From NCBI GenBank assembly GCA_050747005.1, contig JBOGNE010000027.1, positions 7,847 to 47,846 of the forward strand: 40,000 nucleotides of DNA. The letters are read 5' to 3'. Of this stretch, positions 8,472 through 22,295 are shown piece after piece. Numbering within the stretch: the first letter of the stretch is position 1; every line of letters starts with the position of its first letter. The translations under genes and the position numbers were made by a program. Origin of the DNA: Candidatus Acidiferrales bacterium (GTDB lineage Bacteria; Acidobacteriota; Terriglobia; Acidiferrales; UBA7541). The notes beneath the pieces were generated by a model. It was not told where the DNA came from, did not search any database, and saw only the letters and a program-made list of their open reading frames with translations.

Positions 8472-8486
8472 CCAAACCGCCAAACG
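8472..8486. repeat. Left copy of the 15-bp direct repeat ccaaaccgccaaacg (putative target-site duplication)
   Basis: An identical 15-mer recurs at 22294..22308 in the same orientation. It overlaps the TIR tips by 1-2 nt, so the real duplication is 12-15 bp. The bases just outside the 15-mer differ between the two copies. Confidence 0.75.
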
Positions 8487-8556
8487 GGGTTAGGGGATAG
8501 GCGACCTTGAAACTGCCCTCTTTGCTGCAAAATGGTGCATTTCTAGGAGATAGTGC
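8486..8556. repeat. Left terminal inverted repeat (71 bp) of the casposon
   Basis: ggggttaggggataggcgaccttgaaactgccctctttgctgcaaaatggtgcatttctaggagatagtgc is the exact reverse complement of 22225..22295 (hand alignment, 71/71). Confidence 0.9.
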
Positions 8557-8598: not shown

Positions 8599-8902
8599 CT
8601 ACGCAATCCAGGAATCGAAGTTGATGTGAATCCCGAGCACATGATTACCCCGTTTAATGCTTTTGAAGATTTCATAGTGAACCCATCGCCGTGCCCACGT
8701 ATCGGAACCGATCAGGACTACCGTTACAGTCGTATTTTCTAATTCCGCTTTAATCAGTCGCTTTAATGCTGACGGACTTGTATTCTTCTCCTCCTCCCTG
8801 GGGGCGGAGTCGTGTATTACTTTTGTGGTGGATTCTACGACGGACTTGGTAATTTGCCCCAAGACTTCGGACGCGAGAGATGAAGGACTCGGTTCCGTTC
8901 AC
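8599..8902 (-). pseudogene. TIR-like (DUF1863 / MTH538-type, ThsB-like) domain gene, apparently frameshifted
   Basis: The track ORF 8599..8862 (TTG start) encodes only the C-terminal half of a DUF1863-type TIR-like domain (TTVTVVLIGSDTWARRWVHYEIFKSIKRGNHVLGIHI). The expected N-terminal strand (MNGTESFISRVRSL) lies in another frame, starting at a GTG (8900-8902) that overlaps the upstream stop codon as GTGA. The two frames meet at a GGGG run (8857-8860). Confidence 0.4.
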
Positions 8903-9318
8903 TTCGCAACTGGACAACTCCAAACTTGTAGCAGGCTCCTCGTGATAATCCAGCCCGCTTTGTCTGCTCGCTGCTCTGGATGGTCCTTCATATACTTGAT
9001 AACGACGTCGACGATCTGCCCGATAGTTGCCGCGTTCGGAACACAAATTGCGTTGAGTTTCCAAAACGATTTGTCGTCCGTCGCGGCTACAGCGCCTTGC
9101 AGACTTCCAATCATGTCGACAGCGCCCTCTATGTAAGCGATGCAGAAGCTATACTGAACGGAGTTAGTGTCTGCGGTACAATGATCGAATAAATCGTTCC
9201 CCGTTTCCCAGGCCCACCCGTCCGTCGTGTTCGGCGAAATGACGTGAGGGTTTTGTGCCCAAAGACAAGTTCCCGCTAAGCAGAAGCTCAAAATGCTGAC
9301 GGCCAATCTAAGTTTCAT
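8899..9318 (-). CDS. Secreted Rap1a/Tai4-like (T6SS amidase-effector immunity family) protein
   Basis: Signal peptide (MKLRLAVSILSFCLAGTCLWAQ) from the ATG at 9318. The pattern GNDLFDHC...FCIAYIEGAVDM...ICVPNAATIGQIVDVVIKYMKDHPEQRADKAGWIITRSLLQVWSCP matches my recollection of the Rap1a immunity-protein consensus. Confidence 0.55.
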   Translation of the reverse strand: MKLRLAVSILSFCLAGTCLWAQNPHVISPNTTDGWAWETGNDLFDHCTADTNSVQYSFCIAYIEGAVDMIGSLQGAVAATDDKSFWKLNAICVPNAATIGQIVDVVIKYMKDHPEQRADKAGWIITRSLLQVWSCPVAK

Positions 9319-9541
9319 TTTCCTCTCGCTCCTCTCAGAAGGACCGATATTGAATCGGATCATGGTGAATCAAATTTCTGGTGTAAGTAAGCGCGAAGTA
9401 AACACTCGGTTCCCGTGTTCTGTCAAGGCGAGTGCGCGCGGGATCGGGCAGTTGGAGAGAAAGTACGGTAAGCGGGATGCACCCCTAGGCGAATGTTCGG
9501 ATCGTACAAATGGGCAGAGCGTTTGAGCGGTGGCATGGAGT

Positions 9542-10090
9542 TCAGCGACCACGACGGCCAATCATCTTCACCGTGACGGCTTCAGTAGTTCGCGGGCCGA
9601 CGTATTTTTCCTTATAGTCCTCAATGATAATACTGCCTTCAAATATTGCCTTCAATTGCCCGGCCCTCGGCAATTCTCGGAAATTGCCCCCTCTGCCTGA
9701 CACCGTCTCCAAAAGCATACAACCGCTCGGAATAAGGGATTCCACTATGCGCGGGAAAAGCTTCCACGGAAGGAAATCAACGATGATGATTCCCCCAAGC
9801 GTGGACGCTGCAAAGGGCCACGGTTCTTTCAACACATCTAGCAGCAGAACTTTCAGTCGATCCTGGCTTCGCAAATCAAGTTCCGGTTTCCGCCGGAAAT
9901 GCGTCAACTCCTTGTCGATGCATATGACCTTACATCCCATCTGCAAGATGAATAGGGAATTGCGTCCGGAACCACACCCAATATCGGCAATCGGAAAGCC
10001 GCGCGCCGACTCGTTAAGGAATTGGGCAAAACGCCTTACGTACGCGGATGGTTTCGAGCGTGGCTGAATCGGATTGGAAGTAACGCACAC
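9542..10090 (-). CDS. Class I SAM-dependent methyltransferase
   Basis: Motif I is IADIGCGSGRNSLFILQMGCKVICIDK. GTG start. It lies 42 nt downstream of hxsC on the same strand. Confidence 0.75.
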   Translation of the reverse strand: MCVTSNPIQPRSKPSAYVRRFAQFLNESARGFPIADIGCGSGRNSLFILQMGCKVICIDKELTHFRRKPELDLRSQDRLKVLLLDVLKEPWPFAASTLGGIIIVDFLPWKLFPRIVESLIPSGCMLLETVSGRGGNFRELPRAGQLKAIFEGSIIIEDYKEKYVGPRTTEAVTVKMIGRRGR

Positions 10091-10132
10091 CTTGGCATCT
10101 CGTCTTTCTTATTGAGTATAAATTGGCTCGAA

Positions 10133-11290
10133 TTAAAATGGTTTGATGTGGTCGCTATATCGATACATCTTCGACGATGAGAAGAATCCACCGCATTCAC
10201 TCCGCCGACCACAGGAACCACAGCATTCTAGATACTCGTTCTTCCAGTCGCTTATTGATTTGCGATAGTTGCCTTCCACGTCCGCGTTCACAACGCATAA
10301 TTGATGGTTATAGACGGACGCCCGTATACCGTAAGCATTGAGCACAGCGATGGCTTGGCTCAAAGTCTCTTTATATTCATAGGGGTCGATCCAAAGAAGT
10401 TCGAGGTTGGCACGGGTGAACCCGGTAATTTCGAGACCCATGAGCGCGACATGATCGACAAACAACAAGTTCCGACAAAGGAACTCACACGTCTGCACGA
10501 GGCGTCCGATCGTTTGTTTGTGCAAGACGATCCTGACTTCGACTCGTTGACCGAATCGCTTTAGATTCAGAATCCCCTGAATGGTTTCGTCGAATGCACC
10601 ATCAGCCTGCACGACATAATCGTGACGGACGGGATCATCGGAGTACACGGGTATTGCCACAGTGCAACTAGGATGATCAACTTTCGCAAATCGTCGTGCA
10701 TAGTCCTTGTCTTTGAATTTCCTGCCATTGCTTAGAAGATCGACCGATGTGTGCGGCAGCTGTAATTTTGCGTGTCTGACGAGATCAATCAAACGGTCGC
10801 CGTACAGCGTAGGCTCGCCGCCGGTAAACGCGATCCGGCGTGCGTCCTTTGGCATAAGACTTATCAAATTGAATGCTCTTCGCAACAAATGTGAATCCTC
10901 AATCTGTTTTGGGGGTTGAGAGCACATCAGACAGTAGTGGTTACACTGTTCGGTCAAAAGGATCGAATTGTTGAAGGAGTTCTTACGGAACAGAGTTTGT
11001 AGATAATTTCTGGCACCGTCTAGATGAACGATGTCGCCATTTGCAAGATAGCTGAAATGCGTAGGAAGAATATAGATATTGCCAGTGCGAAGCGGCTTGG
11101 AGCTTTCATTTAGATGACCAGATATTAGCTGGACTCCGTAACCCGTAACGTCTTGGGGCCTGTCGGTTAGGAGCGCAAAGCGCCCCCGAATCGGCAGCGG
11201 GAGCCCGGCATCACTGGTAATTACATATAGCGAGCTGGGGACGCCTGTCGCCTGTTGAATTGGATCAATGCGCCCGCCAAGCTTTAACAT
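10133..11290 (-). CDS. hxsC: His-Xaa-Ser system radical SAM maturase HxsC-like
   Basis: Radical SAM CxxxCxxC motif (CNHYCLMC, nt 10922-10945) and a Cys-rich C-terminus (CCGSCGRRSECGG). Its start overlaps the hxsB stop (ATGTTAA at 11284-11290). It sits in an HxsA/D/B/C context. Confidence 0.75.
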   Translation of the reverse strand: MLKLGGRIDPIQQATGVPSSLYVITSDAGLPLPIRGRFALLTDRPQDVTGYGVQLISGHLNESSKPLRTGNIYILPTHFSYLANGDIVHLDGARNYLQTLFRKNSFNNSILLTEQCNHYCLMCSQPPKQIEDSHLLRRAFNLISLMPKDARRIAFTGGEPTLYGDRLIDLVRHAKLQLPHTSVDLLSNGRKFKDKDYARRFAKVDHPSCTVAIPVYSDDPVRHDYVVQADGAFDETIQGILNLKRFGQRVEVRIVLHKQTIGRLVQTCEFLCRNLLFVDHVALMGLEITGFTRANLELLWIDPYEYKETLSQAIAVLNAYGIRASVYNHQLCVVNADVEGNYRKSISDWKNEYLECCGSCGRRSECGGFFSSSKMYRYSDHIKPF

Positions 11291-12768
11291 CTGTTAGCCC
11301 AATTCACAAAAAGCCGTCTCACAAATGGATCACTTCTCATTGATTCGATGAGGTGCCGACAGATTGCCATGTTTCGGCGGCAAAATTCAGATTCCGGCTT
11401 TAACCCTACGTGATCGCCATGGGTCGCCCAATGAAACACAGGGTCGGCGCCACAATAGGGCTCAAAGGCGCAATCGTGGCACATGGGATTGCTGTACGCG
11501 AACGAATCCTCCAAAGGATTAATTAAGCTTGGCGATAGAAAAATGTCCTCATATGAATGCTGTCGGACGTGTCCAAGTCGAAAATGATGATCTCCCATTT
11601 CGGCGAGCATTCGACTTTCATCGGATGCATAAACGTATCCATCGTAATTGTAGACTACGGCAGCGATGCCAATGCCAGCAGGACTCATCAAATCGACGTA
11701 ACCTGGATCGCGACTCGTGAACATTTTGGCCAGAATTGTACTCGCATAGAACTCGGTAAAAGCTATTCCTTGTTTGTTGAGGCTGATTACGTACTCTAGG
11801 CCCTGCTTATAAAAATCGAGCCATCGGTCCGTGTTATAGCGCATGTAAGACTTCGTCTTGATTGCGAAGCCGTACGGCGAAAGAGGCCGGAGGAATATTC
11901 TGTCGAAGCGCTGTAAGAGGTATTCGTCAATAATGTCCTTCACTCGACCAAGACTTCGTTCAGTGGTGGTCATCAGCGCTCCAACCCTATCGCTCCCGAT
12001 AAACTCTCGCGCCGTCCGAATTCCGTCTATTGTTCTTTCGTAGCTATCTCCTCCGGGCCGCGGTCGATTCGAATTGTGCAAATCCTGAGGGCCGTCTAGG
12101 GAGGTCGAGATATTGATCTCGTGCTCAGCACAAAAGGTAAGGATATCGCGATCAACCAGAGCCAGATTCGTCGCAATGACAAATTCGATCCGTTTGTCGA
12201 CGTTGCGGCGCTCTGCTTCCCGAACGATATGCGCAATCAAAGGAAAATTCAGTAGCGGCTCGCCGCCTTGGAACTCAATCTTGATAGTGGAAGCGGGAGA
12301 GCGTAACGCGAGGCCTAATGCTGCGTCGGCATCAGTGACCGACATGTCAAATTGGATCTTGTTGTCAGATTGTCGGGACACCTGACAGTACTGACAACTG
12401 TGTTCACACCGAAGTGTGACAACAAAAAGATGTAATCCCGTAAAATCTGCGAGTCGTTCATACCTGCTACGCAGCTTAATTGCCAATAAGTCAGGCGCTA
12501 AACGCGTACTGTCGTCCGTGAGGAAATGCCGGGCGCGCAAATCGATATAGACAGCACTCTCGTCTGCCAATTGGTGGTTGATTAGTTGGCGGAGTTCGTT
12601 CTTAGGGAGGACCAGAAAGTCGCCAGCAATGTTCGAAAGTACGTACTCGGTATCGTTTAGCTCGGTAAAACGGAACGGTAGGAGGCGATAGTCATGGGAC
12701 CTAGGTTTGTAGGATTCGATTTGATGAAATTCACTCATCAGCGATGAGGCCCGTTTTCGAAAAAACAT
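11284..12768 (-). CDS. hxsB: His-Xaa-Ser system radical SAM maturase HxsB-like (rSAM with SPASM-like C-terminal Cys cluster)
   Basis: CxxxCxxC motif (CEHSCQYC, nt 12385-12408), GGEPLL, and C-terminal CHDCAFEPYCGADP. The alternative ATG at 12738 (MSEFHQ) is equally possible. It overlaps the end of hxsD. Confidence 0.75.
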   Translation of the reverse strand: MFFRKRASSLMSEFHQIESYKPRSHDYRLLPFRFTELNDTEYVLSNIAGDFLVLPKNELRQLINHQLADESAVYIDLRARHFLTDDSTRLAPDLLAIKLRSRYERLADFTGLHLFVVTLRCEHSCQYCQVSRQSDNKIQFDMSVTDADAALGLALRSPASTIKIEFQGGEPLLNFPLIAHIVREAERRNVDKRIEFVIATNLALVDRDILTFCAEHEINISTSLDGPQDLHNSNRPRPGGDSYERTIDGIRTAREFIGSDRVGALMTTTERSLGRVKDIIDEYLLQRFDRIFLRPLSPYGFAIKTKSYMRYNTDRWLDFYKQGLEYVISLNKQGIAFTEFYASTILAKMFTSRDPGYVDLMSPAGIGIAAVVYNYDGYVYASDESRMLAEMGDHHFRLGHVRQHSYEDIFLSPSLINPLEDSFAYSNPMCHDCAFEPYCGADPVFHWATHGDHVGLKPESEFCRRNMAICRHLIESMRSDPFVRRLFVNWANRC

Positions 12769-13030
12769 GAGCGAGAATGAGATTTCGAATCGGCTCGGTC
12801 TCCGCCTTCAATTTGAGGCGTAGGTCCTGGTCGAGTACCTCTTTCTTAAGACGGTCTACTTGGGCCTGTGCCGTTACCTCTGAAACGTTGTCGCTAAAGG
12901 TGAGATGGCAGATGATGCTGCGGTCGGATATTTCGATATCCGGCGTGAAACGGTCAAGAAATACGTAGCATGCCGCCTTAACTGCATCTACTGAGAAAAC
13001 TGTCAAGTCGAAGCTGACATCTATCGTCAT
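12731..13030 (-). CDS. hxsD: His-Xaa-Ser system protein HxsD-like (small accessory protein)
   Basis: 99-aa ORF between hxsA and hxsB, in the position HxsD occupies in the described cassette. The segment EVLDQDLRLK loosely resembles the family signature I recall (LLNDYxLRE). The assignment is mainly by context. Confidence 0.55.
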   Translation of the reverse strand: MTIDVSFDLTVFSVDAVKAACYVFLDRFTPDIEISDRSIICHLTFSDNVSEVTAQAQVDRLKKEVLDQDLRLKLKAETEPIRNLILAHVFSKTGLIADE

Positions 13031-13126
13031 AGTGATGCCGTCGAAGTGTGATGAGAGATTTCTCGCGACTGATTCCCATCACGGCTGCTCTCGCCCCTCC
13101 GTACAAAACTGGAGATGACGCCGCGT

Positions 13127-13465
13127 TTAGAAACCGGAGGAGTGGGACGAATGCGAACTGTGAGACGAATGAGAATCATGGGACGACGAACCGTGGGACG
13201 AGTGCGAGACATGAGATGAGTGCGATCCATGTGAAACATGCGATGAGTGCTGCGCCGAAAGCACCCCATCCGACAGCTTCAACAGAAGAGCATGCTCTTC
13301 GCCGTTACTCAGATAATGGTGCGCGAAAGTCTTAGCCGCCGATAATTGGGAGACATCGGGGGCACTCTCGATTATGGCCTCAGGCTTAGCAGTCACTTTG
13401 GAAGCGTTCACGGCAACAACGCTCGCAGCCACGCTAACTGGAATAAGAAATTTGTAGCGCTTCAT
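13127..13465 (-). CDS. hxsA: His-Xaa-Ser repeat protein HxsA (putative secreted precursor)
   Basis: The ATG at 13465 is preceded by GGAGG. Signal peptide MKRYKFLIPVSVAASVVAVNA. The C-terminal tract is HSSHVSHGSHSSHVSHSSHGSSSHDSHSSHSSHSSHSSGF. Confidence 0.8.
   Translation of the reverse strand: MKRYKFLIPVSVAASVVAVNASKVTAKPEAIIESAPDVSQLSAAKTFAHHYLSNGEEHALLLKLSDGVLSAQHSSHVSHGSHSSHVSHSSHGSSSHDSHSSHSSHSSHSSGF
13136..13249 (-). repeat. Tandem short-period (6-9 nt) coding repeat specifying the His-Xaa-Ser tract of HxsA
   Basis: On the plus strand the tract reads as reiterated (g/c)gag(t/a)g / cga(a/t)tg units. It translates as about 12 H-x-S / H-S-S units. Confidence 0.7.
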
Positions 13466-13487
13466 TTGAACCTCCACGATCCCTAGC

Positions 13488-13516
13488 GTTATAGACCTAG
13501 GGCAGGTACTTGTCCA
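13488..13516 (-). promoter_or_regulatory. Putative sigma70-type promoter of the hxs operon
   Basis: The minus strand reads TGGACA, then a 17-nt spacer, then TATAAC (-35 at 13511-13516, -10 at 13488-13493). This lies about 20 nt upstream of the hxsA GGAGG/ATG. The spacer and -10 overlap a ccctag...ctaggg palindrome (13481-13502). Confidence 0.3.
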
Positions 13517-13689
13517 GTAATATCAGCGCCCGGCCCAGCTCGTCCGTCGGATTACGCGCGCCGAATTGGCTCCATTGGCTGTCATGTTGCGTAATCGAAA
13601 CACAGACTGATTCAGTGATAGAAAAATTTAACTCTTTAAGAGTAATGCACCATTAGCTGATACATCATTTTTTGCGGTAAAGGTCACTT

Positions 13690-15231
13690 TCACTCATCCC
13701 GTGAGACACCAACGAGTTGTGCAAGGACTTGCCAATGCCTTGAATGAGGAATCCGGCGACCTTTGCGAATATCTACGGCGTATGAAATTGAAATGCCGAG
13801 CTTCGATGCCAACACGGAGAGCGTGAGACTCGGCAATCGGGATTGAATTTCGTTCTCGTAAGTTTCCTTGGTGAGCCATTCCGGGTTCATCGATTCCTTC
13901 CATGCATACCGGGCAGTGGCGTGTCCTTGTTGTGTTTTTCCCCGGTGAGCTTGTGCCTGATCACTTTGAGCGGCTACACGTCCCTTTACTGCGGCTTTGA
14001 TAAGCCCGGCAGTAGTCAGAGTCATTGAACAGCTTGCGCAGTACGTGCGACCTCGTGGTATCGCTATTGTGCAGACGCGACAGAAACTTTCCGGACGGGG
14101 AGCCTTTGAAGGAGATGCCGGTAACACCCCTTTGACTTCGCAACGGTGAAGCTGCGTTAACCGCGTTGCCAGACGGGGCTTGCTGCTCGCTTTTCGTATG
14201 GTCAACCATAGCGCCTGTGCAACCCATTCTGCTATGGGCGCGACCGCACCGGACCAAGTGGCGGCAGTTTCAGAAAGCCGACCGGCGAACGATCCCATAA
14301 GACGGCAGTTGCCATCACGCTGCTCAAAGAACCATTCACGCCTAAGAGTTTCCCGGCTGATCCATTCCAACACATAGCGATCTACTTGCGGGCGAATTGG
14401 TTCCATGACATCGCATGCGAGGCTGTCATGGGCCGGTGAGTCGGTGTGCAACACTCCGAGACCGGGATCGAGTCCAAGCGCGGATATGGCCAACCGCGTT
14501 TCCGATTCCAGTAGTGCATAGAGATAATTGAGCATTGCGTTTGCAGGGTTTGCCGCGAGCCGAGGTGATCCCGTTAACGGCGAAAAACGAGTGCCGAAAA
14601 CTCGCCAATGTTCGGGAACTCGGTGAAGATCGCTCTTCGAAAAATTAATCGCACGATCTCTCCATGCGCCCCAATAGAAGCGTGCCGCCCGCGATTCGAG
14701 CAACCGAATAGCTCCAATGCTCTGCGCCGTCGCAATTCCCGGGCGAATCTGGGAGATGAGTTGCGCTACCGTTTCGTCCTGCAAGCTGACGCGAGCGACT
14801 TTTTCCTGTGCGTCCAATTTTCGGATGATCAATTCTCGGGCGATCTCTAACGCAGCCCCCGAATGACTAGCAAGCGCTTGAGCACGTCGCAATCGAGCAT
14901 CGGACGGTCGCACCGGGCCGGTCGTGGCAAGCACTGACCCGTCCCGCTCAAGCATAATGAAAGAAGCATCTTGATCAGCCAACCAACGGAGTGCAGCAAG
15001 CGATACCATTCCGTCGGCTCCAATTACCACGAGGCGGCGGATTCCATGGCCCACGCGAGCGAAACGGCCTTGACGGCGCACAACACCGATCCCGTCCCGC
15101 ATGCATAAGTGACCACGATCAACATGCACGTTGATACCGTAACCAAAGAGGGTAATGACACCGTACTCGGGTTTGATTGGCGTGAAATTGCAGTGGTGAG
15201 GCGGATGCGGTAGGGTCTGCGTAGCTGCCAT
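13690..15231 (-). CDS. cas1: Cas1-family integrase (casposase) with C-terminal Zn-ribbon and HTH
   Basis: The Cas1 core is NAMLNYLYALLESETRLAISALGLDPGLGVLHTDSPAHDSLACDVMEPIRPQVD, so catalytic E, H and D/E are present. The C-terminal part carries CRVCTIAIPRGRTYCASC plus the HTH-like LSVLASKLGISISYAVDIRKGRR. The ATG at 15231 is preceded by AAGGAGG. The track GTG start at 15315 is an alternative. Confidence 0.85.
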   Translation of the reverse strand: MAATQTLPHPPHHCNFTPIKPEYGVITLFGYGINVHVDRGHLCMRDGIGVVRRQGRFARVGHGIRRLVVIGADGMVSLAALRWLADQDASFIMLERDGSVLATTGPVRPSDARLRRAQALASHSGAALEIARELIIRKLDAQEKVARVSLQDETVAQLISQIRPGIATAQSIGAIRLLESRAARFYWGAWRDRAINFSKSDLHRVPEHWRVFGTRFSPLTGSPRLAANPANAMLNYLYALLESETRLAISALGLDPGLGVLHTDSPAHDSLACDVMEPIRPQVDRYVLEWISRETLRREWFFEQRDGNCRLMGSFAGRLSETAATWSGAVAPIAEWVAQALWLTIRKASSKPRLATRLTQLHRCEVKGVLPASPSKAPRPESFCRVCTIAIPRGRTYCASCSMTLTTAGLIKAAVKGRVAAQSDQAQAHRGKTQQGHATARYAWKESMNPEWLTKETYENEIQSRLPSLTLSVLASKLGISISYAVDIRKGRRIPHSRHWQVLAQLVGVSRDE

Positions 15232-15331
15232 TGGAGCTAGACCTCCTTTGGTGGTTAGGGCTTGTCGTCTGCTCGCAACAGGCGGCAGGCCCGCTTTTCG
15301 AGTGAATTTTACCACGGGCAGGGTTCACAAT

Positions 15332-16129
15332 TCAGCCTCCGCGAAACCAGTCTCCACAAGACAGAAAAACCGCAAGGCTCGTCGGATAACGCGGGGCTAT
15401 TCTGAACCTACATCTCCAGCACGAGCACGCGGCGCTATGCTTCAATTTTCGTATGATCTCCACGGCCGTTGAGGGCGCAAGACGAAGAGTTAAACCCGCC
15501 ATAACACGAGCGAGATATTCGATCCGCCGATAATCTCCCGATTTTCGCTGATCGCGCGAAGGATATCTAGCATCAAGCTTCGCTCGACAGAATTCTTCAG
15601 CCCGCTCGTACAACACTCGTCTCCAATACCAGTAGTCGGCGAAGCCGCCCCCAGGGAAGTCCCGGCGTGTTTTGAGCCAAATCTTTGATCGTTTGCAAAT
15701 TCGCCGCACCTGCGCACCCGTTTCTGCTCGCTTCAATGCTTCCCATAGGCCGCGCTCCGCTGGAATTGCGGGAGCCGTGAACGGGAGAGAGGTCAGACTC
15801 ATCATGTCTGCTTCAAATTGATCTTCTTCTTCCTGCACGCGCATTTTCCAGGTCCGCAACTCGTCGGGTGTCGTGCTGAACTTCGGCTGAGTAATGACAC
15901 GCGGCATATCTCCGAATTTCTGAATGAACACCTGTTGTTGACCGGTTCCGCTCTTTTTTATGAACGCGCCTCCGCTTCGCACCCACGTTTCGATCTCTGG
16001 ATTGCCATCTCGCAGACCGCGAAAGGTGTCGACCCAAAGATACTCATATTTCACCAACTGCTCGAAATCGACTTTCGTCGGTCTGCCAACTCTCCGTTTA
16101 TCAGTGCCTTGAAAGGGTTTCGTCCCCAA
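15332..16129 (-). CDS. Hypothetical protein (casposon core-adjacent, unknown function)
   Basis: 265-aa ORF immediately upstream of cas1 on the same strand. TTG start (uncertain). It has an N-terminal basic segment (KRRVGRPTK) and a C-terminal CSCWRC. I recognise no family. Confidence 0.45.
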   Translation of the reverse strand: MGTKPFQGTDKRRVGRPTKVDFEQLVKYEYLWVDTFRGLRDGNPEIETWVRSGGAFIKKSGTGQQQVFIQKFGDMPRVITQPKFSTTPDELRTWKMRVQEEEDQFEADMMSLTSLPFTAPAIPAERGLWEALKRAETGAQVRRICKRSKIWLKTRRDFPGGGFADYWYWRRVLYERAEEFCRAKLDARYPSRDQRKSGDYRRIEYLARVMAGLTLRLAPSTAVEIIRKLKHSAACSCWRCRFRIAPRYPTSLAVFLSCGDWFRGG

Positions 16130-16184: not shown

Positions 16185-16733
16185 ATGGCTAAGAGAGAAC
16201 AAAAGAAGCAAAGGCACGGAGCTAGAAAGTCTCGTGAAACCGCAGCGAAAACGCTGAATGATTTTTCATCAAGATCAACGACATTTCAGGACACGTGGAA
16301 TCGGGTCACTCACGCAGTCTCGAAAATGCGGTCACACGGAATGTCGCTCAAAGAGGCTTCGCGCGAGTTTGGCCTGAACCCGCGCACAACTCTGCGACTG
16401 GGAAAGCCAGCACTGCGGAAAAACAAGAGTGGACGATATGTGGCTAAAGCCAGTGACAAACTCCTGCGAGTTCTGGTTTTGCCAACTGAGAAGGGTGTGC
16501 GCGAGATAGCAGTGCGCAGTTCAAAGGAAGCAAGTCTTATCGGGGAATATTGGGCAGCCGTCCAAAAGTACTTGGCAACGGGCGATGTATCACGCCTGAA
16601 GAAAATTCGCCGCAAGACCATAAGGGATGCCAATCGCAAACGGCTTCCACTACTAACCAACCTGGAGAAATTAGACCAGCAGGCATCGGCGGGAATTCTC
16701 GGGTTCGAATCGATCTATGGGGGAATTGCCTGA
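16185..16733 (+). CDS. Hypothetical HTH-containing protein
   Basis: 182-aa basic ORF with an HTH-like segment (MSLKEASREFGLNPRTTLRL). It is the first gene of the plus-strand polB operon and is divergent from 15332..16129. Confidence 0.5.
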   Translation: MAKREQKKQRHGARKSRETAAKTLNDFSSRSTTFQDTWNRVTHAVSKMRSHGMSLKEASREFGLNPRTTLRLGKPALRKNKSGRYVAKASDKLLRVLVLPTEKGVREIAVRSSKEASLIGEYWAAVQKYLATGDVSRLKKIRRKTIRDANRKRLPLLTNLEKLDQQASAGILGFESIYGGIA

Positions 16734-17231
16734 ATGCCGAAGAAGGTTCCGCCTCGCGATCCGGTTCTCGCACTTCAGCGCAAAGCGATTGCGTCACGGA
16801 GGGTTGGAAATCAGAAATGTGCGAAATGCGGGGAGTCTAGAGCCGAGGCGTTAGTCGCTGGCACCAAACCGATGCTCTGCGCGGCATGCCAGCGGCGGAA
16901 ACAGCGCAAGAGCAGACTAGACGCTCATCACCCAGCGGGAAGAGCCAATGGTCGCGCCACGATTACGATGCCTGTTAACGACCATCGCGCTGCATTGAGT
17001 GTTGCTCAATACGACTGGCCCGAAGAGACATTGGAAAATTCGGATGGTAGTCCGCTTCTCGCGGCTGCAGCACACATTCGCGGATTCATCGACATGCTGT
17101 ATTACATGATCGACAAATTCCTCGCCTGGATTCCCGATCTTCTCGAATACCTTAACTCACTGCTGACCAAGTCGCGCGGTCGCAAATGGTGGCGAAGTAC
17201 AAAGTTGGACCGATTTGCGCCAAAGCGATGA
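16734..17231 (+). CDS. Zn-ribbon / HNH-like nuclease-motif protein
   Basis: CAKCGE...CAACQRR is followed by DAHHPAGRANGRATITMPVNDHR (an H-N-H-like spacing). Its ATG abuts the upstream TGA (16731-16736), and its stop overlaps the polB ATG (ATGA at 17228-17231). Confidence 0.45.
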   Translation: MPKKVPPRDPVLALQRKAIASRRVGNQKCAKCGESRAEALVAGTKPMLCAACQRRKQRKSRLDAHHPAGRANGRATITMPVNDHRAALSVAQYDWPEETLENSDGSPLLAAAAHIRGFIDMLYYMIDKFLAWIPDLLEYLNSLLTKSRGRKWWRSTKLDRFAPKR

Positions 17232-20200
17232 AAATCTCAGCTCCGCACGCTCCGTTACCCATTGCGATCCGTGTTTTTTCCAAATTGGTAAAGAAACAAA
17301 CCGAGACAGGTCGAAGCACACATTGGAGACTGCCAGATGCGATGCTCGTCTTTGACACCGAAACGCGAATAGACGCGACACAACGCCTCACGTTTGGAAG
17401 CTATAGGTTCTTCGAGAGCGGTCAATGTATCGAGGAAGCGTTGTTCTGCGCTGACGATCTACCTGCGAAAGACTGGAGAGCACTCTCACGTTATGCCAGG
17501 TCACACCGAGCCGCAGTCGTGGGAGCACGGCATATCCGGTTGCTGACGCTGACTGAGTTTCTGGACCGATTTTATCGACTGACGTACAAAAGCCGGTGCC
17601 TTGTCGTCGGATTCAATCTACCATTCGATATGTCCAGGATCGCTCGGGATTCTGCCGCTGCACGAGGTCGTTTCGCAGGAGGATTCTCTCTAGGGTTGTG
17701 GACGTACCGTGACAACCAGGATTGCGAGCACCCGAGCACCTATCGGCCCAGATTTGCTACAAAGCAAATCGATAGCAAACGAGCCCTAAAGGGCTTCACT
17801 GCATGCTTCAAGCCCGATAAGACCGACCTTATCCCAGAGGGTTCTTCGAGCGGGAAGCCCGAAGAGGGATACAAGTTTCGGGGTCACTTCTTAGACTTGC
17901 GTACGCTGGCCTTTGCACTTACTGATGAAAGCTATTCTCTCGAGTCCGCGTGCGAGGTGTTCGGTGTCGAGCACCGCAAGGCAAAAGCTTCTCGTCATGG
18001 CGAGATCACTGAGGAATACATCGATTACAACCGGCGCGACGTTTTGGCGACTGCGGAACTCGCAGTCAAACTCCTTGAAGAATACGAGCGTCACCCTATC
18101 AAGCTACAAGCGACCAAAGCCTATTCACCAGCTTCAATCGGCAAAGCCTATTTGCGCGCAATGGGAGTTGCGCCAATCCTTGAGCGACAGCCACACTTTC
18201 CGAGGAAATTTCTCGGGTACGCGCAGTCTGCATTTTTCGGCGGACGTACCAGCGCTCACATTCGCAAAGCGCCTGTCCCTGTTGTATACGTCGATTTCCT
18301 ATCAATGTATCCGACAGTGAACAGCCTTATGAACCTCTGGCGATTTGTCATGGCAGAGCAAATCAAAATTGTCTGTCATTGCCAACGAGAAATTCGGTCG
18401 TTTCTGAAGCGTTTGACTCGTGCAGAGCTATTCAAGCCCGAAACGTGGACCCGACTGCCAGCATTTGTGAAGATCATTCCAAACGACGACATCCTTCCAA
18501 GTCGGAGCCAATACAGTCTGCAGACGAATGATTGGCAAGTTGCTGTCAATTACTTATATGCGAAAGGCAGCAAGCGAAACGATGGTTTGTGGTACTCGCT
18601 GCCGGATGTAGCGGCAAGTGTTCTTCTCACCGGGAAGGTGCCGAGGATCGTTGACGGGTTTCGCCTTGAAGCACGCGGAGTTCGCGAACGCCTCAAAGCA
18701 GTAAAGCTGCGGGGCGCTGTGAGAGTTGATCCGAGAAAACAAGATTTCTTTAGGGTTGTCATCGAAGAGCGTAAACGCGCATCCTCACGAGCCGACCTGT
18801 CAGAGACGGAAGAGAGACGTCTCGATAAGGCACTGAAAGTTCTCGCGAACGCAGCGAGTTATGGCATCTACGCGGAGATGAACCGGCAGGAATCGGACAA
18901 GAAAGTCAGAGTAAATTGCTACGGAATAGATGCGAAATCATTTTCGTGTTCTGTCTCACATCCAGACGTTCCGGGGGAATATTGTTTTCCACCGCTTGCG
19001 TCGCTCATTACCGGAGCGGCTCGCCTGATGCTCGCGCTACTCGAATCTTGTGTCACGGAGATAGGCGGAACTTACGCGATGGAAGACACTGATTCTATGG
19101 CAATCGTCGCAACCAAGCACGGCGGACTTGTTGCGTGTCCTGGCGGACCGCTTCGAAGTCGCAACGATAAGGAGGCGATCACAGCGCTATCTTGGTTACA
19201 GGTTCGAAAGATTTCAGAACAATTCGCTGCGCTTAACCCATACAAGAAAACAGCGATACCCGGATCGATTCTCAAGATTGAGGAAGATAATTTTGATCCG
19301 AAGACACATAGGCAGCGACAGCTTTACTGTCTAGCGATCTCCGCTAAGCGGTATGCACTATTTTTGCTGAATCGCAAACGTGAGCCTGTTCTGTTGGAGC
19401 GTGGCGTCAACAATCGCAAAGACAGATGGTCTGAGCATGGCTTAGGCCATCTCTTAAATCCAAGCAATCCCGACAGCGAGGATCGCGATTGGATTGGACA
19501 ATCATGGCTCATGTTAATTCGACGCAGCCTCGCACTCACAACGAAGAGACACAGATTCGAGACTCTACCGGCAATTGGACGGATTACACTGAGTAGCCCG
19601 CTAGTCATGCGCCCCTTCATCGCTTTCAACACGGGGAAGCCGTACGCGGACCAAATCAAACCGTTCAACTTTCTCTTAACCTGTCACGTTGCCCCACTCG
19701 GCCATCCCGTTGATTGTCAGCCGGCGGATTTCCACCTCGTCTCGCCTTTCGAACTCAATTCCAAGAAGTGGCTGGGAATGGAGTGGTTGAACCTCTACAC
19801 AGGAAAGCGATATCGGATCACAACGGTTGGACATCATGGTACGCGCCACGCAGCGCGCGTGAAGACCTATGGCGACGTGCTAAGTGAGTACGAATTTCAC
19901 CCAGAATCGAAGTGCGCAGATGCAAACGGGCAAATATGCAGGAGAGAAACACTTGGCTTACTGCAACGACGGCGCGTTCAGATCGACGCGATCAAATACA
20001 TCGGGAAAGAATCGAATCAGCTAGAGAACGTTCACGCGGGTTTAATCCACTCGGAGAAAAGTGTCTACACCGAATACACAGATGCGAGACGCGATGAATG
20101 GGCAACGAAATTATTGCCGGTGTTGAGAAAACCCCCGTTGAGGGTTCTCGTAAGGAAGTGTCGCGGTCGTATCTCTCGCAGAGCACTGATTGAAATGAGA

Positions 20201-20269
20201 GCCGGACGAAGCAGTCCGCATCGAAAGAATCAAGAAATCCTTAGGACGGTTGCTCTCACTTTCGATTAA
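17228..20269 (+). CDS. polB: Family B DNA polymerase (casposon PolB)
   Basis: Motifs: Exo I LVFDTETRID, Exo II YNRRDVLAT, Pol A VYVDFLSMYPT, Pol B KVLANAASYGIYAE, and Pol C YAMEDTDSMAI (DTDS at nt 19085-19096). The start at 17228 is chosen for the ATGA coupling. The track start is 17186. Confidence 0.85.
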   Translation: MKISAPHAPLPIAIRVFSKLVKKQTETGRSTHWRLPDAMLVFDTETRIDATQRLTFGSYRFFESGQCIEEALFCADDLPAKDWRALSRYARSHRAAVVGARHIRLLTLTEFLDRFYRLTYKSRCLVVGFNLPFDMSRIARDSAAARGRFAGGFSLGLWTYRDNQDCEHPSTYRPRFATKQIDSKRALKGFTACFKPDKTDLIPEGSSSGKPEEGYKFRGHFLDLRTLAFALTDESYSLESACEVFGVEHRKAKASRHGEITEEYIDYNRRDVLATAELAVKLLEEYERHPIKLQATKAYSPASIGKAYLRAMGVAPILERQPHFPRKFLGYAQSAFFGGRTSAHIRKAPVPVVYVDFLSMYPTVNSLMNLWRFVMAEQIKIVCHCQREIRSFLKRLTRAELFKPETWTRLPAFVKIIPNDDILPSRSQYSLQTNDWQVAVNYLYAKGSKRNDGLWYSLPDVAASVLLTGKVPRIVDGFRLEARGVRERLKAVKLRGAVRVDPRKQDFFRVVIEERKRASSRADLSETEERRLDKALKVLANAASYGIYAEMNRQESDKKVRVNCYGIDAKSFSCSVSHPDVPGEYCFPPLASLITGAARLMLALLESCVTEIGGTYAMEDTDSMAIVATKHGGLVACPGGPLRSRNDKEAITALSWLQVRKISEQFAALNPYKKTAIPGSILKIEEDNFDPKTHRQRQLYCLAISAKRYALFLLNRKREPVLLERGVNNRKDRWSEHGLGHLLNPSNPDSEDRDWIGQSWLMLIRRSLALTTKRHRFETLPAIGRITLSSPLVMRPFIAFNTGKPYADQIKPFNFLLTCHVAPLGHPVDCQPADFHLVSPFELNSKKWLGMEWLNLYTGKRYRITTVGHHGTRHAARVKTYGDVLSEYEFHPESKCADANGQICRRETLGLLQRRRVQIDAIKYIGKESNQLENVHAGLIHSEKSVYTEYTDARRDEWATKLLPVLRKPPLRVLVRKCRGRISRRALIEMRAGRSSPHRKNQEILRTVALTFD

Positions 20270-20316: not shown

Positions 20317-21819
20317 TCAGGCGGCCTTCGAGCCAGACGGCTTGTTATCGTCGCGAGCGTCGATAACCACGACATTTTCCTTGTTGTCGAGCTTCAGTCT
20401 TTTCAGAATATCTTCCAAACGGTTTTGTTCAGCTTCAGAGAAAAACAGAACCACCTTTATGGACTTCCGCGCATCGCTTGCTTTCTGGTATATCTGAGTT
20501 TGGTGTTGAAGATTCTTTTCGAGTTGAGAATTGCTTGCAAGCTTAAATTCGACTATTGATTTGTCTGTACTGCCGCGTGATATTTTGTAGTCGGCTGGTC
20601 CCCGCCCATCGTTCACTTCGCGACTTACGTCTGATGGCGTGGCGTACCACGTAAACCTATAAAGAATGTGGGCATCGCTTTCGCGTTGCAATAGTTGGCC
20701 CTTAACGTAGAAGATTTTGTGGCCGCCCTTGTTTTCAATTACGTCCTTAAGGAAGCGGACCCGACAGAGCGCTTCGTCATAAGTTCGTCCGCTGTTGCGG
20801 TAGAACTCTGACTGTCGGGCGAGCAAGTCAACTAGTCGTCCAAATTGCTCATGGTAAAGAGTTTCGGATGATTTAACTCTTCTGGAACTTATGCTTTCGG
20901 CTTCCCGTCCTAGTTGTTCCTTTCGCCGAATGAAATAGTCGATTATTTTCGGGAAGTGGTAGATGGTCTCGCTAGCGGCGTTACGTCGTTGCTTAGGCGT
21001 TGCCTTCTCTGGAAGAACTCTAATGAAGTAATTGTTAATTTTTGCTCGCAACTCCGTATTGGAAACGGAATCGCACAATCTTTCAAAATCGGTGACAAGG
21101 TCCGCTCGGTTGATCCAGGTGTTCTCTTTCGCCAGCATATCCTTGGGAGTGAGCAAGACATAGTCGTCCTTGAAACATGGCAATACAAACTCTTGTGAAT
21201 GCCAAGTCTCAGTACCGTAAATGAAGCGCACCCGAGGAACTGAGAATCTTCTCTTCAACCGAGGATGAATAAAGCGCTTGGCAAAGGCTTCCGTGTACTT
21301 CAGCAAGAAGCGCTTTATTAGATTTGTTGTGAAGTCGCTGATGTTGTCCTTCCCAACTCCATCGTCTATTAGGCAGAGTTTTTCAAGATGACTGCCGCGC
21401 GAAACATTCTCGTTCCCAAATTCCGAAAAAATGCGGTGAAGGTTTCTGTGAAGTGTGTTCGCGAACTTGCTGCCCAACCCACGTCCTTTGTTGCCCTCCG
21501 CAGTGAAACCGAGCCAGTTCTGATCAACTTCTGGAAAGCGATAGAGCGACTGTATCAATCCAGGATCCAAATGCGAGGCGGCAGATTTTCGCTTAAGAAA
21601 TCTCAGATATTTGATTATATCTTTGTGCAGTTTACGATACTGCGACTTTCGACTGTTGAACAGAAGAAAAGGGTCGATAAACAACGGAAGGTCAGAGACG
21701 AGGGAAATATCAAACGCGCCGTACGATCTTAGTTGTGAGGCGGACACTTCAAAGAAGTCTGAAAAGTACAGCCTCATTTGAGAGCCGCCATCTTCCTCAG
21801 GGATTTCTTTCCCAGGCAT
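20317..21819 (-). CDS. Hypothetical protein with C-terminal PD-(D/E)xK-like nuclease motif
   Basis: 500-aa ORF (alternative ATG at 21777, MRLYFSDFF). The C-terminal segment GRGPADYKISRGSTDKSIVEFKLASNSQLEKNLQHQTQIYQKA fits a D...ExK...Q..Y restriction-endonuclease-like core. The N-terminal 400 aa are unrecognised. Confidence 0.5.
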   Translation of the reverse strand: MPGKEIPEEDGGSQMRLYFSDFFEVSASQLRSYGAFDISLVSDLPLFIDPFLLFNSRKSQYRKLHKDIIKYLRFLKRKSAASHLDPGLIQSLYRFPEVDQNWLGFTAEGNKGRGLGSKFANTLHRNLHRIFSEFGNENVSRGSHLEKLCLIDDGVGKDNISDFTTNLIKRFLLKYTEAFAKRFIHPRLKRRFSVPRVRFIYGTETWHSQEFVLPCFKDDYVLLTPKDMLAKENTWINRADLVTDFERLCDSVSNTELRAKINNYFIRVLPEKATPKQRRNAASETIYHFPKIIDYFIRRKEQLGREAESISSRRVKSSETLYHEQFGRLVDLLARQSEFYRNSGRTYDEALCRVRFLKDVIENKGGHKIFYVKGQLLQRESDAHILYRFTWYATPSDVSREVNDGRGPADYKISRGSTDKSIVEFKLASNSQLEKNLQHQTQIYQKASDARKSIKVVLFFSEAEQNRLEDILKRLKLDNKENVVVIDARDDNKPSGSKAA

Positions 21820-22224: not shown

Positions 22225-22295
22225 GCACTATCTCCTAGAAATGCACCATTTTGCAGCAAAGAGGGCAGTTTCAAGGTCGCCTATCCCCTAACCCC
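22225..22295. repeat. Right terminal inverted repeat (71 bp) of the casposon
   Basis: Exact reverse complement of 8486..8556. Confidence 0.9.

What the first reader, a model, noticed from the sequence alone, without database searches (positions are those of the whole stretch)
9542..13516. Full His-Xaa-Ser (HxsA/D/B/C) twin radical-SAM peptide system plus a methyltransferase carried as casposon cargo
Seen directly: a co-directional, tightly packed operon with overlapping stop/start codons at 11284-11290 and 12731-12768. It encodes a secreted precursor-like protein ending in HSSHVSHGSHSSHVSHSSHGSSSHDSHSSHSSHSSHSSGF, a 99-aa accessory protein, and two radical SAM enzymes (CEHSCQYC at 12385-12408 and CNHYCLMC at 10922-10945), both with Cys-rich C-terminal regions. 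A class I SAM methyltransferase follows 42 nt downstream. Established knowledge: the His-Xaa-Ser system is a bioinformatically defined four-gene cassette (TIGRFAMs HxsA-D). To my knowledge its product and biological role have not been determined experimentally. Inference: sitting inside intact casposon ends means the cassette is mobilised horizontally by a Cas1 transposon. The additional methyltransferase suggests extra tailoring. A secreted, modified His/Ser-rich peptide could be a metal binder or a competition factor. This link between an uncharacterised RiPP-like system and a casposon is, as far as I know, undescribed.
Basis: partly seen in the sequence, partly recalled or inferred. Interest (0 to 1): 0.8.

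Follow-up and report, generated by a model that had tools for sequence, protein, structure and literature searches.

The report
Casposon carrying an HXS anti-phage cassette
A 13.8-kb self-replicating Cas1 transposon (casposon) in a soil Acidobacteriota genome carries, as cargo, a complete five-gene variant of the His-Xaa-Ser system, which was shown in 2026 to block phage DNA entry; related casposons carry other immune genes at the same position.

Summary
HxsA2, HxsD, HxsB and HxsC all score above NCBIfam's curated cut-offs. The genes overlap as described. The fifth gene has a class I SAM methyltransferase fold.

The block lies inside an intact casposon. The element has perfect 70-71 nt terminal inverted repeats, a 14-bp target-site duplication, Cas1 with a zinc-binding motif and HTH, an HNH-like ORF and PolB.

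The interpretation needs updating in three ways:
- HXS is no longer uncharacterised. Li et al. (Nat Commun 2026) showed that it is an anti-phage system that blocks phage DNA entry.
- The methyltransferase is not a casposon-specific add-on. It is a conserved fifth gene of an Acidobacterial hxsA-D-B-C clade.
- The cassette is mobile cargo. None of 79 related casposons carries it. A second casposon (L085) does carry it in the same slot, and a third locus keeps a cas1 3' remnant beside hxsA. Other copies sit on ICE-like or integrase islands.

The slot downstream of cas1 is hypervariable in this family, which has 284 hits in species-representative genomes. It often holds known defence genes (type I RM, Thoeris, Pycsar, defence-associated reverse transcriptases, Lamassu).

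I found no published description of this casposon family or of HXS on casposons. Verdict: a new variant of known kinds, of moderate-to-good interest.

The parts
8473..8486 (.). Left copy of the target-site duplication (CAAACCGCCAAACG). The unambiguous core is 8474-8485.
   Evidence: sequence. The 14-bp reading matches the TSD length in related elements.
8486..8556 (+). Left terminal inverted repeat (GGGGTTAGGGGATAGG...).
   Evidence: arms 8486-8556 / 22225-22295, 71 nt, 100% complementary. The terminal sequence GGGTTAGG/GGGATAGG is shared with relatives.
8599..8862 (-). ThsB/TIR-like gene fragment (87 aa). It is probably a pseudogene.
   Evidence: PF08937 at 63 bits. PADLOC ThsB E=1.3e-23, but covering only profile positions 27-100 of 162.
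8899..9363 (-). Rap1a-like immunity protein gene with an N-terminal signal sequence. This is additional cargo.
   Evidence: PF18602 at 64.9 bits. It is absent from all related loci.
9542..10090 (-). Fifth gene of the cassette: a small class I SAM-dependent methyltransferase (TehB-like fold) of unknown substrate.
   Evidence: Weak Pfam and NCBIfam hits. Profile against PDB finds TehB/Slr1183 at E 2e-6 to 3e-5. The AF2 model has pLDDT 86.7. All top Foldseek hits are class I MTases. The gene is conserved after hxsC in relatives. dN/dS is 0.145.
10133..11290 (-). hxsC, a radical SAM maturase (CNHYCLMC at 10922-10945, Cys-rich C-terminus).
   Evidence: TIGR03977: 375.2 bits vs cut-off 267.9..
11284..12768 (-). 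hxsB, a radical SAM/SPASM-like maturase (CEHSCQYC at 12385-12408). The likely start is 12738.
   Evidence: TIGR03978: 602.2 bits vs cut-off 370..
12731..13030 (-). hxsD, a small accessory protein.
   Evidence: TIGR03976: 56.5 bits vs cut-off 50.
13127..13477 (-). hxsA (HxsA2 type). It has a Sec-like signal peptide, a conserved NGEEHxLLLK core and 12 C-terminal H-x-S repeats. The ATG start is at 13465.
   Evidence: NF038296: 53.1 bits vs cut-off 48..
13478..13689 (-). Intergenic junction between the cas1 stop and hxsA. Similarity to non-casposon cassettes starts at 13522. The presumed cassette promoter is here but was not identified.
   Evidence: The promoter scan was uninformative.
13690..15315 (-). 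Casposase (Cas1 domain, C-terminal CxxC...CxxC zinc-binding motif, HTH). The annotated start gives 513 aa (13690-15231).
   Evidence: PF01867 at 146 bits and TIGR00287 at 117.7 bits. The best solved-structure hit is 6OPM, the M. mazei casposase, at E=5.6e-23. Catalytic-region residues are invariant in family alignment A1.
15332..16129 (-). ORF of 265 aa upstream of cas1. Its function is unknown and it is poorly conserved.
   Evidence: No family hits. Found in 4 of 79 relatives.
16185..16733 (+). Conserved 182-aa casposon backbone ORF of unknown function, basic in composition.
   Evidence: Present in 47 of 79 relatives. Also present in L085 and L120. No Pfam family matched.
16734..17231 (+). 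HNH-like zinc-finger ORF (CAKCG...CAACQ...HH...N...H).
   Evidence: Sequence read by eye. No Pfam hit. The L085 counterpart has CxxC...HH...CxxCH.
17186..20269 (+). Family B DNA polymerase (1027 aa).
   Evidence: PF03175: 29.4 bits vs cut-off 25.8. Exo I (FDTE) and DTD motifs are visible. Present in 73 of 79 relatives.
20317..21819 (-). Second cargo position: a 500-aa protein matching the candidate defence family PDC-M36A.
   Evidence: PADLOC PDLC04597 E=3.8e-22. The same family occurs in the cargo of two relatives.
22225..22295 (-). Right terminal inverted repeat.
22295..22308 (.). Right copy of the target-site duplication, followed directly by TTGAC.

Best explanation
Window 8473-22308 is an intact, probably recently inserted casposon in a Candidatus Acidiferrales (Acidobacteriota) chromosome. 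It is about 13.8 kb and of the bacterial type: Cas1-ZBD-HTH, HNH-like ORF, PolB. It sits in the 5' region of gltX.

The variable cargo slot downstream of cas1 holds a five-gene HxsA2-type His-Xaa-Ser cassette, hxsA-hxsD-hxsB-hxsC-methyltransferase.

By homology with the E. coli HXS system, the most likely mechanism is as follows (inferred):
1. The two radical SAM enzymes, with HxsD, covalently mature the small secreted HxsA protein in its C-terminal H-x-S array.
2. The methyltransferase possibly adds a further tailoring step.
3. The matured His/Ser-rich effector acts in the periplasm to stop incoming phage DNA.

The casposon gains because it protects the host it rides in. The cassette spreads by moving between casposons, ICE-like elements and integrase islands.

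Shown here: gene identities, element boundaries, cargo position, conservation and purifying selection of all five genes, variability and defence content of the slot in relatives, and a second casposon with the same cassette.

Inferred, not shown: anti-phage function of this HxsA2 variant, the methyltransferase substrate, current mobility, and the mechanism of cassette exchange.
For: Identity of the cassette: all four Hxs models score above curated cut-offs. The rSAM motifs and overlaps are confirmed. The fifth gene has an MTase fold.

Casposon structure: TIR, TSD, Cas1+HTH, best PDB hit is a casposase, PolB. GC is 0.51 inside versus 0.58 outside.

Family: there are 284 relatives in species-representative genomes. 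The 79 loci fetched are, with one exception labelled Micrarchaeota (L068), from Acidobacteriota MAGs. 73 of 79 have PolB. TIRs are found in 42 of 79, and 14-bp TSDs recur.

Cargo slot:
- 167 ORFs fall into 154 clusters.
- PADLOC hits include type I RM (E=4e-185), PDC-M54A (9e-212), PycC and PycTIR (7e-96, 2e-92), RT-TIR and RT-protease defence-associated reverse transcriptases, ThsA/ThsB, LmuA and RmrA.
- The largest cargo ORF has a PADLOC hit in 9 of the 20 elements tested.
- The closest casposases (71, 68 and 67% identity) have the same backbone but different cargo.

The cassette as a mobile unit:
- DNA similarity to other loci spans only 13522 to 9591.
- The same five genes occur beside TrwC/T4CP, ArdC, integrases, SMODS/SLATT and AbiV.
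- L085 is a second casposon with cas1 followed by hxsA-D-B-C.
- L082 keeps a 56-codon cas1 3' remnant directly upstream of hxsA (HMM E=1e-13).

Selection: dN/dS is 0.05-0.15.

Function: E. coli HXS gives broad anti-phage defence by blocking DNA entry, and it needs all four genes (PMC13128918).
Against: - The characterised E. coli HxsA has a peptidoglycan-binding domain that is essential for defence, basic residues in its repeats, and gene order D-B-C-A. This HxsA2 is 116 aa with no detectable domain, has no Lys or Arg in its repeat tail, and has order A-D-B-C. The functional transfer is therefore across subtypes.
- No PADLOC model recognises the Hxs proteins beyond generic radical SAM similarity to viperins.
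- About half of the largest cargo ORFs in relatives have no known defence match. No background rate was computed, so enrichment is not statistically shown.
- No empty site or excision product was found.
- No promoter was identified.
Confidence: 0.75

Rival explanations
1. First reader's reading. The cassette makes a secreted, modified His/Ser-rich RiPP-like peptide that acts as a metal chelator or an inter-bacterial competition factor, not as a phage defence.
For: HxsA2 is small (116 aa), has a signal peptide and 12 His residues in 40 C-terminal positions, and lacks a cell-wall anchor domain. HxsB is related to peptide-modifying rSAM/SPASM maturases. A tailoring methyltransferase is typical of RiPP clusters, with a weak hit to the daptide MTase. 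A Rap1a-like immunity gene lies next door.
Against: The only experimental study of an Hxs system found anti-phage defence, with HxsA retained in the periplasm (PMC13128918). The cassette has no transporter, protease or immunity gene conserved with it. The cassette's neighbours and the equivalent slot in related casposons are dominated by defence genes.
Confidence: 0.13
2. The hxs block is a secondary, nested insertion of an independent mobile element into the casposon, rather than true casposon cargo.
For: None of 79 related casposons carries it. The block has slightly lower GC (0.50) than the cas1-polB core (0.53). The same block occurs in other element types.
Against: There is no transposase, integrase or recombinase inside the casposon other than Cas1. 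No credible repeats flank the block. The only candidates are a 30-nt direct repeat at 70% identity and a 23-nt inverted pair at 74% complementarity. The block sits exactly where every relative carries 1-9 kb of unrelated cargo. A second casposon has it at the same junction.
Confidence: 0.05
3. The cassette mainly serves the casposon in conflicts between mobile elements. By blocking entry of foreign DNA (phages, possibly transducing particles), it excludes competitors from the cell the casposon occupies. Host protection is a by-product.
For: HXS acts at DNA entry rather than by abortive infection. The cassette is found almost only on mobile elements. Several MAGs hold two casposons of this family with different cargo (L014/L021, L019/L031, L029/L040).
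Against: This cannot be distinguished from host-benefit defence with sequence data. The effect of HXS on plasmids or transduction is untested even in E. coli.
Confidence: 0.07

Closest known systems
E. coli HXS anti-phage system (hxsD-hxsB-hxsC-hxsA; Li et al., Nat Commun 2026, PMC13128918)
   Same: It has twin radical SAM enzymes HxsB and HxsC with CxxxCxxC and C-terminal Cys clusters. It has the small HxsD partner. HxsA carries a signal peptide and tandem H-x-S repeats that end in an S-H-x-S motif, which is where the E. coli +8 Da modification maps. The window's proteins pass the same NCBIfam equivalog models.
   Different: HxsA here is the HxsA2 subtype: 116 aa, no peptidoglycan-binding domain, 12 repeats instead of 5, and no Lys or Arg in the repeats. 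Gene order is A-D-B-C, which the paper reports for under 0.4% of systems. There is a conserved fifth gene encoding a class I methyltransferase. The host phylum is Acidobacteriota, whereas the paper reports 99.7% Pseudomonadota. The cassette is carried on a casposon.
Family 2/3 casposons (Krupovic et al. 2014, PMC4046053; AceAut-C1 and NitAL212-C1 in bacteria; M. mazei casposon)
   Same: It has a Cas1 casposase with a C-terminal zinc-binding motif and HTH (as in AceAut-C1), PolB, an HNH-like ORF, TIRs and a 14-bp TSD (as in M. mazei). Size is 12-19 kb. The best solved-structure match is the M. mazei casposase 6OPM.
   Different: Published bacterial casposons number only a handful, and their described genes are almost all for DNA manipulation. 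Here the family has at least 284 members in Acidobacteriota species representatives. It has a hypervariable slot after cas1 that often carries recognised anti-phage systems. Insertion is not at a tRNA 3' end but at sites sharing a GTCAA motif. Family assignment by Cas1 phylogeny was not done.
Pipolins and other defence-carrying mobile elements (Mateo-Caceres et al., NAR 2024, PMC11551731)
   Same: These are PolB-encoding integrative elements with a small conserved core and a variable module rich in defence systems that are exchanged with other mobile elements.
   Different: They use a different integrase (tyrosine recombinase versus Cas1) and a different polymerase type. That study found the 48 published casposons to be poorer in defence genes than pipolins.

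Membership tests
His-Xaa-Ser (HXS) system | HxsB radical SAM maturase (TIGR03978 equivalog) | tested here: met
   602.2 bits vs cut-off 370. The next best family scores 95 bits. CxxxCxxC lies at residues 121-128, and C-terminal Cys at 430/433/439/463/470.
His-Xaa-Ser (HXS) system | HxsC radical SAM maturase (TIGR03977 equivalog) | tested here: met
   375.2 bits vs cut-off 267.9. CxxxCxxC lies at residues 116-123, and there is a C-terminal CCGSCGRRSEC.
His-Xaa-Ser (HXS) system | HxsD small partner protein (TIGR03976) | tested here: met
   56.5 bits vs cut-off 50. The motif is degenerate (VLDQDLRL), but the D and R that were mutated in E. coli are kept.
His-Xaa-Ser (HXS) system | HxsA substrate/effector with signal peptide and tandem H-x-S repeats | tested here: met
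   HxsA2 NF038296 scores 53.1 bits vs cut-off 48. There are 12 H-x-S units and the N-terminus is MKRYKFLIPVSVAASVVAVNA. The signal peptide was judged by eye; no predictor was available.
His-Xaa-Ser (HXS) system, E. coli type as characterised | Peptidoglycan-binding domain in HxsA (essential for defence in E. coli) | tested here: not met
   No Pfam domain in the 116-aa protein. The requirement is described in PMC13128918.
His-Xaa-Ser (HXS) system, E. coli type as characterised | Gene order hxsD-B-C-A (99.6% of systems in the paper's survey) | tested here: not met
   The order here is A-D-B-C plus MTase. The same order holds in all 30 related soil loci examined.
His-Xaa-Ser (HXS) system | Anti-phage activity; block of phage DNA entry | not testable with these tools
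   This needs phage challenge of cells expressing the cassette.
Casposon | Cas1-family casposase not associated with CRISPR or cas2, with a C-terminal HTH | tested here: met
   PF01867 at 146 bits, with weak HTH_3/HTH_31 matches at residues 497-541. No cas2 or CRISPR array is in the window. The best PDB hit is the casposase 6OPM.
Casposon | Self-encoded family B DNA polymerase | tested here: met
   PF03175 at 29.4 bits vs cut-off 25.8. Conserved in 73 of 79 relatives. No sequence-level PDB hit.
Casposon | Terminal inverted repeats flanked by a 14-15 bp target-site duplication | tested here: met
   The TIR is 70-71 nt and perfect. The duplication is 12 nt unambiguous and 14 nt with the shared end bases. 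14-bp TSDs occur in relatives.
Casposon | HNH endonuclease (present in families 2 and 3) | tested here: inconclusive
   ORF 16734-17231 has CxxC...CxxC...HH...N...H by eye but no Pfam hit.
Casposon family 3 (bacterial) | Placement in the family 3 clade of the Cas1 tree | not tested
Only the domain layout (ZBD+HTH at the C-terminus, as in AceAut-C1) and the bacterial host agree.
Casposon | Mobility (empty sites, several copies at different sites) | tested here: inconclusive
   No empty site was found, because the only other contig with identical gltX ends inside the TIR. Relatives occur at many different sites and twice in several MAGs, which suggests activity.
Class I SAM-dependent methyltransferase | Rossmann-like MTase fold with glycine-rich SAM-binding motif I | tested here: met
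   The motif DIGCGSGRN is invariant in 16 homologues. The AF2 model has pLDDT 86.7. Foldseek hits TehB, Slr1183, NodS and others at E around 1e-8, TM 0.6-0.76. The single-sequence Pfam score is below the cut-off (22.3 vs 27).

The most novel reading that the evidence does not exclude
Acidobacteriota (Terriglobia) host a large, active and so far undescribed family of casposons that work as shuttles for immune systems. A recombination-prone slot directly after cas1 swaps defence cassettes with ICEs and integrase islands. In one locus a cas1 3' remnant remains attached to the hxs cassette. The hxsA2-D-B-C-methyltransferase cassette is a distinct five-gene HXS subtype. Its effector is small, unanchored and His-rich. 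It may become polycationic in the acidic periplasm of acid-soil bacteria and block phage DNA entry by a route that differs from the peptidoglycan-anchored E. coli protein.
Probability: 0.45. Interest if true: 0.7.

Novelty: new variant of a known kind. Interest (0 to 1): 0.6.

Why it matters
- **Role of casposons.** Casposons are known mainly as the ancestors of the CRISPR adaptation module. They are thought to be rare in bacteria and to carry mostly DNA-handling genes. This locus and its relatives suggest that in soil Acidobacteriota they are common. They appear to act as vehicles for innate immune systems, adding Cas1 transposons to the list of defence-island carriers.
- **Experimental entry point.** An element with perfect ends and an identifiable target motif gives a bacterial casposon that could be tested for transposition.
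- **Reach of HXS.** The finding extends the newly characterised HXS defence beyond Proteobacteria, to a subtype with a different effector architecture and an extra methyltransferase. This may help to solve the still unknown radical SAM chemistry (+8 Da).
- **Unknown cargo.** The many large, unannotated cargo genes in the same slot are candidates for new defence systems.

Tried and rejected
- **Empty-site search.** I looked up the exact GltX protein. The only other contig ends inside the TIR, so this was uninformative.
- **IMG/VR viral contigs.** Scans with the casposase profile and with HxsB found no relatives.
- **Sigma-70 promoter and terminator scan of 8400-16300.** It gave fewer promoter-like sites than shuffled sequence, and none before hxsA.
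- **Rfam scan of the whole window.** Nothing found. No tRNA genes were found either, so this is not a tRNA-targeted insertion.
- **Own boundaries for the hxs block.** The only flanking repeats are weak (70-74% identity) and best explained by chance. Rejected.
- **PADLOC on the Hxs proteins.** Only generic radical SAM similarity to viperin models. The 2023 library predates HXS.
- **PolB against PDB sequences.** No hit.
- **Single ancestral capture of hxs by casposons.** The HxsB+HxsC tree puts the window next to a non-casposon copy (L080). It puts the second casposon copy (L085) in another subclade, together with the cas1-remnant locus (L082) and non-casposon copies. The choice is therefore between repeated capture and repeated loss, and it is not resolved.
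- **dS for hxsB.** It was saturated, so dN/dS could be given only for hxsD, hxsC and the methyltransferase.

Full report
**1. The observation**

On the minus strand of the window there is a tight operon:
- hxsA at 13127-13477.
- hxsD at 12731-13030.
- hxsB at 11284-12768.
- hxsC at 10133-11290.
- A 182-aa gene at 9542-10090, after a 42-nt gap.

The gene junctions are the overlaps ATGAGTGA (hxsD/hxsB) and ATGTTAA (hxsB/hxsC).

All four Hxs proteins exceed NCBIfam's curated cut-offs:
- HxsA2: 53.1 vs 48.
- HxsD: 56.5 vs 50.
- HxsB: 602 vs 370.
- HxsC: 375 vs 268.

The next-best families for HxsB and HxsC score far below their own cut-offs. The 'generic sulfatase-maturase-like' alternative is therefore excluded.

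HxsA has an N-terminus that looks like a Sec signal peptide (MKRYKFLIPVSVAASVVAVNA). It has a conserved NGEEHxLLLK core and 12 H-x-S units at its extreme C-terminus.

**2. The fifth gene**

Single-sequence matches to methyltransferase families are below their cut-offs. A profile of its 16 database homologues finds TehB and Slr1183 in the PDB at E 2e-6 to 3e-5. An AlphaFold model (pLDDT 86.7) matches only class I SAM methyltransferases. The motif DIGCGSGRN is invariant. It is a real class I methyltransferase of unknown substrate.

**3. The casposon**

- A 71-nt perfect inverted repeat lies at 8486-8556 and 22225-22295.
- It is flanked by a direct duplication. The duplication is best read as the 14 bp CAAACCGCCAAACG, with a 70-nt TIR beginning GGGTTAGG. 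This is the same TIR end and the same TSD length as in relatives.
- Between the ends lie a Cas1 protein with a C-terminal CxxC...CxxC motif and an HTH. Its best solved-structure relative is the M. mazei casposase 6OPM.
- There are also a conserved 182-aa ORF, an HNH-like zinc-finger ORF and a 1027-aa PolB.
- GC is 0.51 inside the element and 0.58 outside.
- The element sits just upstream of gltX. No tRNA gene is nearby.
- The host is a Candidatus Acidiferrales MAG, according to the source names of the identical Cas1 and HxsB proteins.

**4. What is now known about HXS**

A 2026 paper (PMC13128918) reports the following:
- The E. coli hxsD-B-C-A operon protects against 110 of 113 coliphages by blocking DNA entry.
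- All four genes are needed.
- HxsB/C/D drive N-terminal processing and a +8 Da modification in the last H-x-S repeat (SHRSS).
- Mature HxsA acts in the periplasm, anchored by a peptidoglycan-binding domain.

The paper reports 99.7% of systems in Pseudomonadota and 99.6% with gene order D-B-C-A. The window's system differs in several ways:
- HxsA2 has no detectable domain.
- It has more repeats, and no Lys or Arg in them.
- Gene order is A-D-B-C.
- There is a fifth gene.
- The host phylum is Acidobacteriota.

The C-terminal S-H-x-S-G motif is conserved in all HxsA2 proteins I saw. It resembles the E. coli modification site. I infer that it is the site that is modified.

**5. Relatives of the casposon**

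A profile of 36 casposases found 284 relatives in the species-representative genome collection. Of the 79 loci fetched, 78 are labelled as Acidobacteriota MAGs and one (L068) as Micrarchaeota. Identity to the window's casposase is 55-68%.

- PolB is present in 73 of 79. None has HxsA, B, C or D, the methyltransferase, Rap1a or the ThsB fragment.
- TIRs were found in 42. Most of these elements are 12-19 kb, with a region of about 1-9 kb between cas1 and the nearer TIR.
- That region is hypervariable: 167 ORFs from 40 elements fall into 154 clusters.
- PADLOC finds many strong defence matches there: type I RM, RmrA, PDC-M36A, PDC-M54A, Pycsar cyclase plus TIR effector, ThsA/ThsB, LmuA, RT-TIR and RT-protease, and others.
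- In 9 of 20 elements tested, the largest cargo ORF has a PADLOC hit.
- The three closest casposases (71, 68 and 67% identity) have the same backbone. Their cargo is respectively a trypsin-like protease plus a 1408-aa protein, a DUF2326/MC8/CTD12 three-gene set, and RepB/ParB plus recombinase plus a Schlafen-like helicase.

No background rate was computed, so enrichment is indicated but not proven.

**6. Relatives of the cassette**

HxsB has close homologues (84-70% identity) in soil metagenomes. In these the same block recurs: hxsA, hxsD, hxsB, hxsC and the methyltransferase.

- DNA similarity to the window covers only 13522 to 9591.
- The methyltransferase is present in 10 of 12 informative loci. 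It is absent from more distant hxs loci.
- dN/dS between the window and L080 is 0.08 (hxsD), 0.045 (hxsC) and 0.145 (methyltransferase).
- Neighbours are typical of mobile and defence islands: tyrosine integrases, resolvases, IS, ArdC, TrwC relaxase with coupling protein, a reverse transcriptase, SMODS/SLATT and HEPN-AbiV.

Two loci tie the cassette to casposons again:
- L085 is a 10.4-kb contig with PolB, an HNH-like ORF and Cas1 (57% identical). It then has hxsA-D-B-C (HxsB 76% identical) in the same slot, running to the contig end.
- L082 has a 56-codon remnant of the cas1 3' end (family HMM E=1e-13, stop codons upstream) about 120 nt before hxsA.

In a tree of HxsB+HxsC the window pairs with a non-casposon copy (L080, 81.6%). 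L085 pairs with L082 (89%) among other non-casposon copies. The association has therefore either arisen at least twice or been lost repeatedly.

In MAG GCA_030038275.1 a casposon (L004) and an ICE-borne hxs cassette (L117) coexist on different contigs.

**7. Interpretation**

The block is exchangeable cargo in the family's standard slot. It is not a nested element: it has no recombinase and no credible flanking repeats.

The most likely function is anti-phage defence of the HXS kind. Three lines of evidence support this: homology, the company the cassette keeps, and the content of the equivalent slot in related casposons.

The main caveat is the different effector architecture. One speculative point, not tested: a His-rich tail would be protonated in the acidic periplasm of acid-soil bacteria. 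That could replace the basic residues of the E. coli repeats.

**8. Novelty**

Full-text searches found no paper that links casposons with HXS, radical SAM cargo, Acidobacteria or defence cargo. The one exception is a pipolin study, which found the 48 published casposons to be comparatively poor in defence genes. Subscription-only literature was not searchable.

I therefore rate the locus as a new variant of known kinds, an HXS subtype on a casposon, and as a lead to a larger undescribed casposon family. Interest is about 0.6.

Noticed in passing
L003-L079 element ends (e.g. L008 2857/17041, L021, L031, L073); window 22309-22313: The 14-bp target-site duplications of related casposons nearly always start with GTCAA, or end with TTGAC in the other orientation. 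This suggests a target-site motif for this family. In the window, TTGAC lies directly after the duplication instead of inside it.
   Followed up: partly
L082:9023-9238: A 56-codon remnant of the casposase C-terminal HTH region (GRRIPHPRHW motif, stop codons upstream) sits about 120 nt upstream of hxsA in a locus with no other casposon genes. It is either a decayed casposon or evidence that the cassette moves together with the cas1 3' end.
   Followed up: partly
window 8599-9363: Two further cargo genes lie between the methyltransferase and the left TIR. One is a Rap1a-like (type VI immunity family) secreted protein. The other is a ThsB/TIR-like fragment that matches only the middle of the domain. 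A possible N-terminal piece (ESFISRV) lies in another reading frame around 8867-8893, so it is probably a frameshifted and truncated pseudogene.
   Followed up: partly
window 20317-21819: A 500-aa protein at the other end of the element, between polB and the right TIR, matches the candidate defence family PDC-M36A (E=3.8e-22). The same family turns up in the cargo of two related casposons. The element may therefore have two cargo positions.
   Followed up: no
L118 versus L120 (and window 17186-20269): Cas1 and PolB similarities disagree. L118 has the closest Cas1 (71%) but a PolB only 35% identical. L120 has Cas1 at 67% and PolB at 61%. This suggests that backbone modules are shuffled between casposons.
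   Followed up: no
L014/L021, L019/L031, L029/L040, L027/L037, L050/L064: Several MAGs, in one case a single contig, carry two casposons of this family with different cargo. This hints at ongoing activity.
   Followed up: no
L018:12351-17063, L029:13294-18360, L055:12992-18046, L079:11828-17158: Very large cargo ORFs of about 1570-1780 aa occur in these elements. One blastp cluster of four such ORFs (median 1689 aa, four elements) includes L055's. The two that were scanned individually (L018 and L029) have no PADLOC match. They are possible uncharacterised defence or conflict genes.
   Followed up: no
L019 (5527-6804 / 16972-18249) and L074 (4815-6110 / 20134-21429): Inverted repeats of about 1.3 kb overlap polB-like sequence instead of forming short TIRs. 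These may be two head-to-head elements or a rearranged casposon.
   Followed up: no
window 8276-8486: The casposon is inserted about 200 nt upstream of the likely gltX start codon (M at 8276). The native gltX promoter region may be split or replaced by the TIR.
   Followed up: no
L068: One related casposon lies on a contig labelled as a Candidatus Micrarchaeota archaeon MAG, while the other 78 loci are Acidobacteriota. This is probably a binning error, though transfer cannot be excluded.
   Followed up: no
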